A stretch of DNA of 64,000 nt. It comes from Eledone cirrhosa (taxonomy: Eukaryota). Of the stretch, positions 23,190 to 60,307 are shown piece after piece (within the stretch, counting starts at the first letter, position 1; each line of letters begins with the position of its first letter). The notes beneath the pieces were generated by a model. That model had not been told where the DNA came from, searched no databases, and saw nothing but the letters and a program-made list of their open reading frames with translations. The position numbers were made by a program, and so were the translations under genes. The DNA lies in NCBI GenBank assembly GCA_964016885.1, contig OZ024755.1, forward strand, positions 2,604,001-2,668,000, written 5' to 3'.

Positions 23190-23494
23190 TGAGGATGAAA
23201 AACTCAGAGCTGTACGGGAGCCTCCCAGAAGTCAGCTCAAAAGTGACACAGAGGAGACTGACGTTAGCTGGACATGCTCACTGACATCCAGAGTTGACAT
23301 TGCACTCAGTGCTACTGTGGGAGCCCCTACATGGACACACTAGAAGAGGAAGACCAAGGTTAATGTATGTTGATGCCCTAAGGACAGACACTGGTCTGTT
23401 GGAGACGCAGGACATGGCAGCGATAATGAGGGACAGAGACCGCTGGAGAGAACTCGTCCATGGATCTCGGGAATTTTACCCGCCCTAGATAGAT

Positions 23495-33304: not shown

Positions 33305-33557
33305 AAAGAATAGAGATGTAACACACGAGTTGTAAAAAGAAAAGAAAATGCTGACAAATTGTTCCCAGTGAAAAATAGTTTAATTAGGAATATGTAAAAA
33401 TGAGTAATAAGTATTGGTTAGTATTCAGTTTTAGTTTTAAGTTTTTACCGGTTGCGCATTTCTAATGCTTTTCAAAAGTAATTTAGAGATAGAGCGCCCG
33501 TGATGTTTGCTCTAATCAGATTAGAGCAAACATCACGGGCGTTCTATCTCAAAAGCC

Positions 33558-36746: not shown

Positions 36747-37139
36747 GGGAATTACTAGGGCGTATATGAAGGAGGGGTAAGGGAAAGAAATAAAGGAGAT
36801 AAAGGTCATATATGTAGGCGGAGCAAGTGGGTAAATCTGGAGAAATTTGTGACTGGATCTGTTAGCAAGAGACACATCTTGGTGATGCCTCACCAAGATG
36901 TGTTTTGTATGTCTTTATCTTGATTTTTTTTCATATTTATTTTCCTCTTCGTTATCTTTCTTATCTTCCTTGTTTGTAGTTTTTCGTTATGGAAGCAAAT
37001 GCAATTTTTCGGGGCTTATTTTGCTGTATGGAAGCAAATACAATGCCTAATCAAATGTGTGTGAGAGACAAATGAGAAAAAGATTGTTGGGGGAAAATAA
37101 TAAGGGAGATGCTGAAAGATACATATACATAGACCATGG

Positions 37140-44732: not shown

Positions 44733-44925
44733 ACGAAGGAGTTGTGGTAAGGAACCAGGTGGACCATAACGCACCAGAGTACTCAATACTTAGGGTAATA
44801 GAGTGGGTAATAGGAAAAAGTATGACCCCGACGGCAGAGCTCAAGCCGTTTCGACTGCTATTTCAGTCCAGAAATAGCAGTCGAAACGGCTTGAGCTCTG
44901 CCGTCGGGGTCATACTTTTTCCTAT
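44731..44925. mobile_element. Asymmetric hairpin element copy 1, in (TA)n
   Basis: 79-nt unpaired extension, then perfect 55-bp inverted arms 44810-44864 / 44871-44925 with loop agtcca. Confidence 0.9.
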
Positions 44926-52030: not shown

Positions 52031-52033
<3 letters not shown>

Positions 52034-52204
52034 CAAAGGAATTGTGGTAAGGAACCAGATGGACCATAACGCACCAGAGTACTCAATACTTAGGGCAGTA
52101 GAGTGGGAAATAGGAAAAAGTATGACCTCGACGGCAGAGCTCAAGCAGTTTCCAGAAATCGCCGTCGAAATGGCTTGAGCTCTGCCGTCGGGGTCATACT
52201 TTTT

Positions 52205-52209
<5 letters not shown>
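52031..52209. mobile_element. Asymmetric hairpin element copy 2, in (TA)n
   Basis: Same extension as copy 1. 43-bp arms 52110-52152 / 52167-52209 with 3 mismatches. Confidence 0.9.
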
Positions 52210-52256: not shown

Positions 52257-52503
52257 CATATATACACATACATTATGTTCTTCTGTTAATACATATCTCG
52301 TTCATATATGATCCATCAAATACGCACATATGCCTTACATATACATCAAATACGCATATATTTATATATGTATATATTATATACGCACATATACATTCAA
52401 ACTCACGTACATAACACAAACACATAGAAATATATATACATAGAGAAATATATATACATAGAAATATATATGTACATAGAAATATATATATATATATACA
52501 TAG

Positions 52504-52545
<42 letters not shown>

Positions 52546-52805
52546 CTATGTATATATATATATATATTTCTATGTACATATATATTTCTATGTATATATA
52601 TTTCTCTATGTATATATATTTCTATGTGTTTGTGTTATGTACGTGAGTTTGAATGTATATGTGCGTATATAATATATACATATATAAATATATGCGTATT
52701 TGATGTATATGTAAGGCATATGTGCGTATTTGATGGATCATATATGAACGAGATATGTATTAACAGAAGAACATAATGTATGTGTATATATGTATGTATA
52801 TATAT
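52244..52805. repeat. 562-bp perfect palindrome centred on (TA)n
   Basis: Axis at 52524/52525. g52503 pairs with c52546 and c52271 with g52778 in constant register. Confidence 0.92.
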
Positions 52806-55034: not shown

Positions 55035-55312
55035 ATGTAAATATGTAAGTATGTATACGCACATACATATATGTATACAGACGTACAGTAGTATGTATAT
55101 ATATACATACATGCACACATATATATATGTACGTATCGGTTTACCGAACATTTATTATAATGCTCGGTTTGTTTGTAAACATTATAATAAATGTTCGGTA
55201 AACCGATACGTACATATATATATATGTGTGCATGTATGTATATATATATATACATACTACTGTACGTCTGCATACATATATGTATTACGTATACATACTT
55301 ACATATTTACAT
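55035..55312. repeat. Inverted repeat, ~130-bp arms, 17-nt spacer
   Basis: 55035-55162 vs 55180-55312, few mismatches and indels. Confidence 0.9.
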
Positions 55313-55684: not shown

Positions 55685-55975
55685 GCGATGTGTTTCTGTC
55701 AGTGTGTTCTAACTTAATATATACACTCGAGACCCAAATCTAAATATCTCGATGCAGATAGCATCCTATACAATGAGCAACGTTGCAGCTTTAAAGAATG
55801 GTGCTACAAGAATAGTTTAATATACCGTATACATTCAAAAGCCAGAGGAATGTGAAGAAAATATGAGATATGAATAATGACAGCTACCAGATTACGTAAG
55901 GACTCTCCCAATATACTTTATATAACACCCTTTAACCCAACAATTAAATTATACTTAATATAATTAGGATTGTAC

Positions 55976-56213
55976 AAAGTTGACACAGAGGAGACTGAGG
56001 TTAGCTGGACATGCTCACCGACATCCAGAGTTGACATTGCACTCAGTGCCCCTACATGGACACACTGGAAGAGGAAGATCAAGGTTAACGTATGTTGATG
56101 CCCTAAGGACAGACACTGGTCTGTTGGAGACGCGGGACATGGCAGCGATAATGAGGGACAGAGACCGCTGGAGAGAACTCGTTCATGGATCTCGGGAATT
56201 TTCCTGCCCTAGA
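55976..56213 (+). mobile_element. RTE-clade LINE 3' end, same family as 23190
   Basis: TQRRLRLAGHAHRHPELTLHSV..HGHTGRGRSRLTYVDALRTDTG...RDRDRWRELV. Confidence 0.92.
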
Positions 56214-56228
56214 TATTTATATATATAT

Positions 56229-56550
56229 ATAGGAAAAGGTTCAGGAACCCGACGGCAGAGCTCAAGCCGTTTCGACGGCTATATCTGGGCCTCTAAAGTC
56301 AACTTTACCCTTTCTAATCCCTGGATCGATATCTAATCTATCTGTCTTCTACTGATGGATAATTATTCTTTTTCACTCACCACTTCTCTCATATTCTCTC
56401 TGAAAAAGAGATCCCCACTATAAGACTGTTAAGGGAGTCCAGATATAGCCCTCGAAACGGCTTGAGCTCTGTCGTCGGGGTCCTGAACATTTTCCTATTA
56501 CTCTGGTGCGTTATGGTCCACCTGGTTCCTTACCACACTTCCTTCGCTAT
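56229..56550. mobile_element. Asymmetric hairpin element copy 4 (opposite orientation) with 150-nt loop
   Basis: ~60-bp arms 56229-56288 / 56439-56498 (4 mismatches) and ~50-nt extension on the right. Loop matches the reverse complement of 58053-58181. Confidence 0.88.
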
Positions 56551-57611
56551 ATATATATATATATATATATATAAATATATAATAAGGAAAATGCGATGTT
56601 CAGTGTAGAGGTTAAAAAGTCCTTTATTAATAAAGCTGTGATACATATTTCCATGACCATTGTGGCTACGTGATTGTTCAACCACGTAACCTGTCACGTG
56701 ATATCATCAAACATCATCTTTATGTAATAAGATTACGTTTCCGAGGTCAACCAATCTAAAGACAAGGGCACAGACAGAAATCATGTTTTCAAAGCTGAAG
56801 TCCGTTTCCTCATTACATTGCATATATTATACTCTTGCTTCCAATGTATATTATACTCAAAGAATGACTCTCTGCGCTGTTATTCAATGTTCTGAAATGA
56901 GGTGCCAAATCTTAAACATTTATGAATATACTGGATACAGTAATTATGTAAAGTTGACAAAGATAAACGTGTTTAGCATGTGGACAGTATGTGAAAATAA
57001 TGACTAACCCCTAAAGCTGTAAGGTTTATTTTCCCAAATATACAAATATAATGCAATAGTATTGTTTAACAATACTTCACGTTGAAACACATTACAGAAA
57101 CAAGAAATATAATAATGACAACAATAAGCCAAGATTATTGGTAATAATAGAAACTAACGTTATCTCTGTTGTTCACTCCACATGCAAAAGTAAGTCATGT
57201 AAACATAACAGAGAAATATTTTATGTGCAATATAACAGTAACGGCTTAAAGGAGAACGCGTTGGTGGAATTAAAATAATATTGTCATCTCATATGACATT
57301 CACGTCAGCATAGTTTTTGAAATAGTACCAAACAACAATATAGGAGAACAAGCGTATTTAATGATATTCCGATAAGTTTTGACAGGTCTTATAACCTTCA
57401 TAAAGTTAAGCATCCGGTAGATAAACACTATAAATGTCATCCATTAAATATAAACCGCAGAGGACAATCAAAGAGAGGTGAAAACATAGAAAGAATGAAG
57501 AAAAGGGATGGGTCCATTGTTTAATGTGGCACTAAATACAACACTAGACTCAGCCATTGACAATTAGGATCGGAAGGACAAACATATTCATATATTTACC
57601 ACTCACACACA

Positions 57612-57648
<37 letters not shown>

Positions 57649-57651
<3 letters not shown>

Positions 57652-57855
57652 CGAAGGAAATATGGTAAGGAACCAGATGGACCATAACGCACCAAAGTAC
57701 TCAATACTTAGGGTAGTAGAGTGGGTAATAGGAACAAGTATGACCCCGACGGCAGAGCTCAAGCCGTTTCGACGGCTAATTCTGGACTCAGAAGTAGTGA
57801 GTTCAGAATTAGCCGTCGAAACGGCTTGAGCTCTGCCGTCGGGGTCATACTTGTT

Positions 57856-57860
<5 letters not shown>
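57649..57860. mobile_element. Asymmetric hairpin element copy 3, in (TA)n
   Basis: 63-bp arms 57728-57790 / 57798-57860, one mismatch, loop gaagtag. Confidence 0.9.
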
Positions 57861-57923
<63 letters not shown>

Positions 57924-57943
57924 CACTGTTTGTACTGCGATCT

Positions 57944-57977
<34 letters not shown>

Positions 57978-57979
57978 AA

Positions 57980-58034
<55 letters not shown>

Positions 58035-58134
58035 GAAGCAAGTTTGTTTTGAAACAGTCTTATAGTGGGAATCTCTCTTTGAGAGAGAGAGGTGGTATGT
58101 GAAAAAGAATAAGTATCCATCAATAGAAGACAGA

Positions 58135-58392
58135 TTCGATATCGACCCAAGGAGTAGAAAAGGTAAAGTTGCCTTTAGAGGTTATTGAACTCAAAGCATG
58201 GATAACCGAAACAAACAACGGTATCCCTGTTACGTGGCCACCTTCTAGATACATGTAGCATGGTAAACTTTGTAGTAGATCCTTTTACAGTCCCTAACAT
58301 AAAGTAGTACTGAAGAACTGAGGTTGCTTTAATCAATTTTTCACTTCCCTCAAATTTGCTGACCTTGTGCCTCAACTGGAAATCAATATTAG
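58135..58392. mobile_element. Two old head-to-head SINE family A relics
   Basis: atcgacccaagg..aaaggtaaagttgcc..ttgaactca (minus) and gaccttgtgcctcaactggaaatcaatatt (plus). Confidence 0.5.
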
Positions 58393-59290
58393 AAGTAAAT
58401 ATACTATTACACCTATGAACTCAAGAGTAGAATTTGAGTTCAAATTTGCAGTAGGCGTTTCGTTGTGTAGTTTAGGCAGAGCCAATGTCCCATAGTACAC
58501 TATCGATATGGTTCATTTCCGGTTGTAGTTAAAATGGAAAAATAGTTGAAGCACACACTTCACGAGAAACAAAACAAAAAAAAAAAGAACATAACATAAA
58601 ACAAAAACGTTACCTCTCTTATAGAACACAACTGCACAGTATTCTGCACTATTGCACAATTTCCTACGATGTATTGGTGCGGTGCACCATAGCAAAGTTC
58701 CATAATCGAGGACAAACGAATCAGCGATATGTTAGTCATTCAATCATGACCAACATGGCGTATTGAAAGGTTAAGTTTTCGCTGCCACTCTTCTAACGTT
58801 TGCAGCATATTTCTGCAGTCCTGCACAACAACAAATCACTCATGCGATCTATACATTCACATCATTTATCCATTCATTTATTATTCATTCAGTTTTATAT
58901 TCTTGCCTGCTTTCTTGATAAACTTAGCGTCTATTTTTTCTACCTTCTTTGCATTATTTCTTTCTTACTTCCGTTTCTCTTTCTTCCTCCTTTCCTCCCT
59001 TCTCTTCTTCCTTCTATTTATCTGTATCTATCTTTTTAGTTTTTCTTCCTGACTTCATTTCCTTCTATCTTTCTTACTAGTGAACACTTATTTTTATGTG
59101 CAAACCCTGTCTTCGTCATAAATATATATACACATGTATGTATGAGTGTGTGTATGTATGTGTATGTATCTGTGTGTGTATGTGTGTGTAACTGGTTGTA
59201 CATATGCACGCATGTATTTGTGTGTGTTCGTGTGTTTGTGTATAAAATTAAAGCAGGACAGAGCGTATATTTGAAGATGTAATATATATA

Positions 59291-59964: not shown

Positions 59965-60307
<343 letters not shown>

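What the first reader, a model, noticed from the sequence alone, without database searches (positions are those of the whole stretch)
56229..58181. Hairpin retroelement whose loop holds a captured, inverted copy of neighbouring chromosomal DNA
Seen: in copies 1-3 of the hairpin family the loop is 6-14 nt, but in copy 4 it is ~150 nt. Bases 56290-56430 (cctctaaagtcaactttacc...gatggataattattctttttcac...cccactataagactgtt) are the reverse complement of 58053-58181, ~1.6 kb away (by eye ~13 substitutions in ~125 aligned bases plus two indels). The match runs from an old SINE relic into unrelated flanking sequence, so it looks like a copy of this locus rather than of a repeat consensus. Arm-to-arm divergence (4/60) is of similar order to loop-to-donor divergence, compatible with capture at insertion. 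Inference: at the fold-back step the RT or a repair polymerase switched template to nearby DNA or a local transcript and then returned, so these elements may act as local sequence-capture devices.
Basis: partly seen in the sequence, partly recalled or inferred. Interest (0 to 1): 0.8.

Follow-up and report, generated by a model that had tools for sequence, protein, structure and literature searches.

The report
Neighbouring DNA copied into retroelement joint
A small hairpin-shaped jumping-gene insertion holds at its centre a reversed 141-base copy of chromosomal DNA lying 1.5 kb away, likely a one-off scar left when DNA repair joined the element's two newly made halves, a kind of event already known for human L1 elements.

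Summary
Observation confirmed. Bases 56290-56430 are the reverse complement of 58053-58181 (13 substitutions in 129 aligned bases, 12 gap bases, E 5e-36). It is a copy of this locus, not family consensus. In three runs of this organism, the only contig matching the loop interior at 80% or more is the donor's own. Loop and donor share 24 differences from the window's SINE-like copies. The donor's homology runs on past the match, so it is the source. Caveat: the loop has no contig of its own in those runs, and no genome was held. Arm and loop divergences are compatible (4/60 vs 13/129, p=0.59), so capture at insertion is allowed, not proven. Best model: two Penelope-like cDNAs primed at a cut (TA)n; one end snapped back onto its own resected strand, copied about 130 bases, then joined the other. 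Analogous templated insertions are published for L1 and R2. 'Capture device' is unsupported: 1 of 4 window copies, no spread seen. The scan noted this twin-arm element type many times in this genome, and mirrored neighbouring DNA twice, but no distant loop capture came up.

The parts
56218..56231 (.). left (TA)n target tract, directly behind the 3' end of a LINE-like repeat
   Evidence: sequence
56229..56289 (-). short arm of hairpin copy 4 (element sense on the minus strand); ends at the same base as the short arms of copies 1-3
56290..56430 (-). loop: 141-bp inverted copy of 58053-58181
56431..56434 (.). 4-nt filler of unassigned origin between loop and long arm
   Evidence: junction print-out
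56435..56498 (+). long arm; carries only the second half of a hammerhead-like core (motif recalled), no first half
   Evidence: no Rfam hammerhead hit
56499..56546 (+). one-sided tail of the long arm (48 bp; 28 bp shorter than in copies 1-3)
56548..56581 (.). right (TA)n target tract
   Evidence: sequence
57651..57860 (-). hairpin copy 3, between copy 4 and the donor; arms differ at 1 of 63, so likely younger than the capture
58053..58181 (+). donor: flank plus part of a decayed SINE-like relic whose homology continues to about 58212
   Evidence: present without differences in one contig per run

Best explanation
The loop is a reversed copy of a stretch of chromosome 1.5 kb to the right, likely written in by repair synthesis while the two halves of a Penelope-like insertion were being joined. 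Shown: the copy, its orientation, its direction (donor to loop), the two-arm layout in (TA)n, and the single matching contig in sequencing runs. Inferred steps: (1) the element's enzyme cut a (TA)n tract, and both DNA ends primed reverse transcription of the element RNA from two fixed start points, giving a long arm with tail and a short arm, both stopping near the ribozyme-like core. (2) The top strand of the right-hand chromosome end was resected by more than 1.3 kb. (3) The 3' end of the right-hand cDNA, which lies on the bottom strand, folded back onto that same exposed strand and was extended for about 130-140 bases; this gives an inverted copy from the same side, as seen. (4) The new end came off and annealed to the left-hand cDNA end, perhaps by a 2-base overlap, and the gaps were filled. 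The polymerase (polymerase theta, a replicative polymerase, or the element's own RT on DNA) cannot be told. The product is a passive scar.
For: Copy of this locus: E 5e-36, next best score at chance level. In 3 of 3 runs of sample S13, exactly one contig lies on the loop interior at 80% or more, and by length and depth (1160/9.26, 1164/7.38, 562/2.6) it is the donor contig. Of 70 scored columns, 24 are shared by loop and donor against the majority of five window SINE-like copies; 3 are private to each and 1 differs in all. Direction: donor homology to those repeats continues past 58181, where the loop stops. Not consensus: 140, 153 and 153 contigs leave the left arm at 56288 with only 0.44-0.46 agreement. 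Timing compatible: 4/60 vs 13/129, Fisher p=0.59; private changes are symmetric, 3:3. Two fixed starts: short arms end at one base in 4 of 4 copies, and copy 4 passes an earlier 5-nt TA match; 92, 78 and 99 contigs show (TA)n before that base. A PLE RT starts at two internal sites that bound the tail (PMC11167929). Left joint fits a 2-nt overlap with one later transition. Precedent: L1 templated insertions (10.1101/2024.08.27.596794; PMC11702581 Figs S9C and S10B); R2 snap-back onto nearby DNA (PMC11371274). In snap-back repair the primer repeats are inverted (PMC5728401).
Against: The loop has no contig of its own in the three runs (depth 0 at 56298-56337). These contigs therefore missed one of the two known copies, and other copies buried in repeats could be missed too. 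No genome was held. The timing intervals are wide (arms 1.8-16%, loop 5.5-17%), so a later repair is not excluded. The LINE-like end beside copy 4 differs from its window sibling at only 10 of 235, less than loop vs donor (p=0.04); this sits awkwardly if copy 4 must be younger than that LINE end, but the order is not known. No priming homology is visible at the right joint, and the 2-base overlap needs one assumed mutation. Published L1 templates typically lie within 15 bp of the site, far closer than 1.5 kb. Penelope membership of this ORF-less family was not shown here.
Confidence: 0.55

Rival explanations
1. Later repair: the element first inserted as a short-loop hairpin; its tip later broke, and the break was patched with a copy of nearby DNA. 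The retroelement only made the fragile site.
For: Near-perfect palindromes are break-prone (own knowledge; one search found nothing specific). Timing intervals overlap widely. Fold-back templated insertions form at ordinary breaks (PMC11724301, abstract).
Against: Both arms still reach the family's usual truncation point, with at most a few bases lost, whereas a later break would often trim them. Loop-donor divergence (10%) is not lower than arm-arm divergence (6.7%), though a later event predicts lower.
Confidence: 0.15
2. Single-strand fold-back with a detour: one cDNA copied the donor, then returned to its own end, copied itself to make the second arm, and joined the left (TA)n.
For: Gives the same layout and uses the same 2-nt overlap. 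cDNA snap-back onto itself is a common R2 junction class (PMC11371274). Self-priming was proposed for PLE palindromes (PMC3846280).
Against: The short arm ends at a fixed base in 4 of 4 copies, and in copy 4 it passes a 5-nt match to the TA repeat where such a strand could have joined. Two fixed RT starts are shown in vitro for another PLE.
Confidence: 0.12
3. RNA template jump: the element's RT jumped from its own RNA to a host transcript crossing the donor.
For: Non-LTR RTs jump to other RNAs, and R2 junctions with U6 are seen. The 4-nt filler could be untemplated addition before a jump. Template jumps were proposed for PLE inserts.
Against: A jump to RNA has no strong reason to pick a locus 1.5 kb away. 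The SINE-sense strand has a 5-T run inside the copied stretch in both loop and donor, which would end a polymerase III transcript early (own knowledge). Transcription here was not tested.
Confidence: 0.07
4. The loop is a piece of a low-copy or old dispersed repeat, and the nearby match is one family member.
For: Part of the stretch is SINE-like, and the 24 shared differences could mark another subfamily. Contigs drop sequences and missed the loop itself. The SINE-like half draws some extra contigs (depth 27-33 vs 3-9).
Against: One matching contig per run among 16-17 million. Near single-contig depth over 58048-58120, while the arms reach 1e5-1e6. A lone partner within 2 kb has a chance near 1e-6 for an assumed 2-2.7 Gb genome.
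Confidence: 0.06
5. A loose fragment cut from the resected neighbourhood was ligated between the two cDNA ends and the donor was refilled from the sister chromatid; or the loop is an assembly error.
For: Capture of cleaved single-stranded pieces is inferred for L1 (PMC11702581 Fig S10A). The loop is absent from three runs' contigs.
Against: 13 substitutions, with changes private to both copies, are unlike a chimeric read or a mis-join. Fragment capture needs an extra repair step.
Confidence: 0.05

Closest known systems
Templated insertions at L1 retrotransposition junctions (10.1101/2024.08.27.596794, passages; PMC11702581, passages and legends of Figs S9-S10)
   Same: A short genomic segment (<250 bp) duplicated into a new insertion, with the donor kept. 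Fig S9C is an inverted duplication explained by resection, fold-back, displacement and ligation to the RT end. Fig S10B labels pieces about 0.5 and 1 kb from the site (my reading of the extracted labels).
   Different: Those are fresh somatic or cell-line L1 events, typically templated within 15 bp. Here the piece sits between two element arms of an old copy in a non-L1 family, and the donor is 1.5 kb away.
R2 'snap-back' 5' junctions in PRINT (PMC11371274, passages)
   Same: The cDNA 3' end primes extra synthesis on the cDNA or, less often, on nearby target DNA before the junction forms.
   Different: R2 makes one cDNA at a fixed rDNA site; here two element-derived ends meet.
EN+ Penelope-like elements with inverted 5'-truncated copy and one-sided tail; Hydra clade in (TA)n (PMC8557442, passages and section 11; PMC11167929, part 2 of 4; PMC3846280, passages)
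   Same: Head-to-head arms with 3' ends outward, a tail on one arm, (TA)n target, part of a hammerhead core. Unrelated DNA captured between pLTRs is reported in Adineta.
   Different: No ORF here, the tail is 48-76 bp rather than 30-40, and there is no complete hammerhead. The Adineta passages read do not trace captured DNA to the insertion's neighbourhood.
Synthesis-dependent microhomology-mediated end joining, snap-back mode (PMC5728401, passages); yeast fold-back insertions (PMC11724301, abstract)
   Same: Resection, intramolecular priming, short synthesis and re-annealing give an inverted insertion from the same side of the break.
   Different: Those templates lie within tens of bases, and the yeast inserts are mostly 5-34 bp. 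This one is 129 bp from at least 1.3 kb away.

Membership tests
Templated insertion at a retrotransposon junction | non-element genomic segment duplicated inside the insertion, donor retained | tested here: met
   donor intact in contigs
Templated insertion at a retrotransposon junction | donor is a specific nearby locus, not a dispersed repeat | tested here: met
   one matching contig per run in 3 of 3 runs; shared differences; caveat: loop's own contig missing, no assembly search
Templated insertion at a retrotransposon junction | template under 250 bp | tested here: met
   129 bp donor; criterion
Templated insertion at a retrotransposon junction | template typically within 15 bp of the site (L1 tumour set; typical, not defining) | tested here: not met
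   1506 bp, or 1296 bp without copy 3; kb-range pieces appear in PMC11702581 Fig S10B
Templated insertion at a retrotransposon junction | formed during the insertion event | tested here: inconclusive
   4/60 vs 13/129, p=0.59, wide intervals
Snap-back SD-MMEJ | inverted primer repeat at the priming joint and microhomology at the closing joint | tested here: inconclusive
   none visible at the right joint; 2 nt with one assumed change at the left
EN+ Penelope-like element (Hydra clade) | PLE-type RT with C-terminal GIY-YIG endonuclease in the parent element | not testable with these tools
   copies are ORF-less ends; no genome held; pattern scans of metagenome and viral contigs found no copy
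EN+ Penelope-like element (Hydra clade) | inverted 5'-truncated copy adjoining the 5' end | tested here: met
   4 of 4 window copies
EN+ Penelope-like element (Hydra clade) | one-sided 30-40 bp tail | tested here: inconclusive
   one-sided tail present in 4 of 4, but 48 bp in copy 4 and about 76 bp in copies 1-3
EN+ Penelope-like element (Hydra clade) | insertion into (TA)n | tested here: met
   both ends of 4 of 4 copies
EN+ Penelope-like element (Hydra clade) | canonical hammerhead ribozyme | tested here: not met
   second half of the core (recalled motif) matches 8 of 8 arms, copy 4's long arm only by a shorter variant; first half in 0 of 4 copies; no Rfam hammerhead hit. Truncation could explain it, so the family is called Penelope-like, not filed as Hydra.
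Independent dispersed repeat | many full-length copies | tested here: not met
   (contigs show presence, not absence)

The most novel reading that the evidence does not exclude
Twin-arm Penelope-like insertions regularly close their central joint by copying DNA from kilobases away on the long-arm side. The many thousands of hairpins in this genome would then be a datable fossil record of germline end resection and repair at retrotransposition sites, and a steady source of small local inverted duplications.
Probability: 0.25. Interest if true: 0.6.

Novelty: new member of a known kind. Interest (0 to 1): 0.34.

Why it matters
How Penelope-like elements finish an insertion and make their inverted ends is stated as open in PMC8557442 and PMC11167929. 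A chromosomal filler between the two arms shows that the centre was once an open joint with access to DNA more than a kilobase away. Its side and orientation predict which end was extended. One case is only a clue, and the event type is known from L1 and R2. A family-wide count of such loops would test twin priming and host repair directly. I found no report of a locally templated centre in a PLE hairpin (searches, open-access library only).

Tried and rejected
No whole genome is held, so the whole-genome BLASTN and the family-wide test could not be run. Pattern scans of metagenome contigs for the loop and the arm, and of viral contigs for the arm, gave 0 loci; these collections need not hold this animal, so this is no evidence. 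Look-ups of earlier notes by sequence for the donor and copy 3 found nothing, nor by place or words. The loop's absence from three runs' contigs is a hole that the tool says proves nothing; contig cleaning may drop a short thin path between very deep repeats (own knowledge), or the sample may lack the allele. RAD run X18 did not cover the loop interior or the spacer, and the donor barely. Run X1 (another organism) gave only a 37-nt piece with 7 differences on the SINE-like part. Runs with small word shares were not used. The 7-nt filler of copy 3 has only chance-level 7-8-mer matches nearby. Copy 4 as a rearranged duplicate of copy 3 plus donor was rejected: both its arms share letters and a 2-base insertion that copies 1 and 3 lack. 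The 4-nt filler as a second templated piece from the donor needs extra changes and was dropped (by eye). Rfam gave no hit at gathering score and 28 sub-threshold hits, mostly generic hairpin models. Pfam gave nothing on the LINE-like frame. The 135 ORFs were only read by eye. PMC2912911, PMC7025897 and 10.64898/2026.07.22.740005 were searched for passages without bearing. Searches gave listings only, apart from the papers cited.

Full report
Setting. The window is microsatellite-rich animal DNA (205 tandem-repeat rows). Earlier notes call the genome octopus-like; I did not test that. No assembly is held. Four copies of a hairpin family lie near 44733-44925, 52033-52209, 56229-56546 and 57651-57860, each with (TA)n on both sides.

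The observation. The loop of copy 4 (56290-56430) matches 58181-58053 at 81.6% over 141 columns, E 5e-36, its only other hit in the window. A global alignment gives 13 substitutions in 129 aligned bases and 12 extra bases in the loop. The local score is 154, against 30 for the next best place and 24-29 for 12 of 12 shuffles. The arms differ at 4 of 60. The centres of copies 1-3 are 6, 14 and 7 nt; in copies 1 and 2 they are unequal truncation of element sequence, not foreign DNA.

This locus or a repeat? I laid public runs found. Over 56150-58330 at 80% likeness, summed contig depth is 1e5-1e6 on the arms, 3.7-7.5 on the plain spacer bins, 6-11 on 58048-58120 and 27-33 on the SINE-like half of the donor. 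The tool warns that depth is no copy number, so I use only the contrast. On the loop alone, each of three runs of one sample (16.3, 16.5 and 17.1 million contigs) lays exactly one contig on the interior. By length and depth it is the donor contig. Against five SINE-like copies in the window, 24 of 70 scored columns are shared by loop and donor but differ from the majority; 39 are common to all, 3 are private to the donor, 3 to the loop and 1 differs in all. Another subfamily could also give shared differences, so the contig result carries more weight.

Direction and consensus. The donor's homology to those repeats continues beyond 58181, while the loop stops there, so the donor is the original. 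The loop is not family consensus: 140, 153 and 153 contigs leave the left arm at 56288 into sequences that agree only 0.44-0.46. The 12 of 110 filler rows shown are 1-18 letters long.

Against this reading. The loop has no contig of its own in these runs (depth 0 at 56298-56337). The test therefore missed one of two known copies, and a few hidden copies, polymorphism or an assembly error are not excluded. An error is unlikely, because both copies carry private changes.

Timing. 4/60 against 13/129 gives Fisher p=0.59, with intervals of 1.8-16% and 5.5-17%. That is compatible with one event but does not prove it. Copy 3, between element and donor, has arms differing at 1 of 63 and is likely younger, so the distance at capture was perhaps 1.3 kb rather than 1506 bp. 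The LINE-like end just left of copy 4 differs from its window sibling at 10 of 235 (p=0.04 against 13/129). This is a mild tension if copy 4 must postdate it, but the order of the two insertions into the shared (TA)n is unknown.

The element. Each copy has two arms whose presumed 3' ends point outward, and one arm carries an extra tail. The short arm ends at the same base in 4 of 4 copies. In copy 4 it passes an earlier 5-nt match to the TA repeat, and 92, 78 and 99 contigs show (TA)n before that base. This is the layout described for endonuclease-bearing Penelope-like elements, and (TA)n targeting is typical of the Hydra clade (PMC8557442, passages and section 11). A PLE RT starts at two internal sites that bound the tail (PMC11167929, part 2 of 4). 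The arms hold only the second half of a hammerhead-like core (motif recalled), with no Rfam hit, and there is no ORF. So it works like a PLE end, but membership is not shown. Earlier notes reached the same twin-priming reading for this kind of family and pointed me to the Hydra paper; they are leads, not support.

Mechanism (inferred). The long arm is attached to the right chromosome end on the bottom strand. Read along that strand, the loop equals the donor's top strand, so its template would be the donor's bottom strand: the same strand, 1.3-1.5 kb back. Resection of the top strand would expose it, and a snap-back then gives an inverted copy from the same side, as seen; snap-back repair uses inverted primer repeats (PMC5728401, passages). 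The left joint fits annealing by 2 bases shared by the family's end and the donor, if one later transition is allowed. The right joint has 4 unassigned bases and no visible priming homology. Extension from the left arm on the donor's top strand is not excluded. A transcript of the SINE relic is a poor template, since a 5-T run lies inside the copied stretch on its sense strand in both copies (sense inferred from a B-box-like motif, and termination at T runs, both recalled). I give this model 0.55, later repair of a broken hairpin tip 0.15, a single-strand fold-back with a detour 0.12, an RNA jump 0.07, a hidden repeat family 0.06, and fragment capture or artefact 0.05. That the loop is a copy of this locus I put near 0.9.

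Comparison with what is known. Tumour L1 insertions include 22 templated insertions, in an analysis whose figure legend gives 3,598 insertions; they are typically under 250 bp and within 15 bp of the site (10.1101/2024.08.27.596794, passages; its supplement not seen). Cell-line L1 insertions include an inverted duplication explained by resection and fold-back, and a junction with pieces labelled about 0.5 and 1 kb from the site (PMC11702581, supplement legends). R2 cDNA ends snap back onto cDNA or nearby rDNA (PMC11371274, passages). Rotifer PLEs capture unrelated DNA between pLTRs (PMC3846280, passages). Two searches found no report of a locally templated centre in a PLE hairpin. Two earlier notes in this genome describe mirror copies of neighbouring DNA at PLE insertions; I did not check them.

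Verdict. A real, locus-specific templated insertion at the centre of a twin-arm, Penelope-like insertion: a new member of a known kind of event. The claim of a capture device is unsupported: 1 of 4 window copies, other fillers short, and no sign that the piece spread. Its value is as a mechanistic clue and as the seed of a simple family-wide test. Interest 0.34.

Noticed in passing
window 60065-60307: A second, unrelated two-arm hairpin in (TA)n with the same layout: identical arms (0 substitutions in 96 aligned bases, 12 gap bases), a tail of about 30 bp on one arm, and a centre that repeats a few bases of the adjoining arm, as if self-templated. No hammerhead core motif.
   Followed up: partly
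window 52409-52640: Mirror image of low-complexity flank around a (TA)n centre, 0 substitutions in 112 aligned bases: a recent fold-back duplication, about 200 bp from hairpin copy 2.
   Followed up: partly
window 55043-55297: Another mirror of about 250 bp that extends into low-complexity flanks, 2 substitutions in 112 aligned bases with several gaps.
   Followed up: partly
window 55975-56209 and 23238-23485: 3' end of a very abundant LINE-like repeat. The frame resembles the C-terminus of RTE-clade proteins (recalled; no Pfam hit). Copy 4 sits directly behind its tail.
   Followed up: partly
window 56590-56800: An older moderate-copy repeat (about 15% differences to other contigs) abuts the right (TA)n of copy 4; not identified.
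   Followed up: no
window 56436 and 57788 (loose ends): Many contigs continue the arm's 5' side into a recurring AT-rich sequence, also seen in run X1 of another organism: probably the upstream body of the longer parent element.
   Followed up: no
window 33482-33554 and 36872-36903: Short near-perfect palindromes; the first abuts a long (TA)n tract.
   Followed up: no
window 58262-58410: A second decayed SINE-like relic in the opposite orientation, right of the donor (64-71% to window copies).
   Followed up: no
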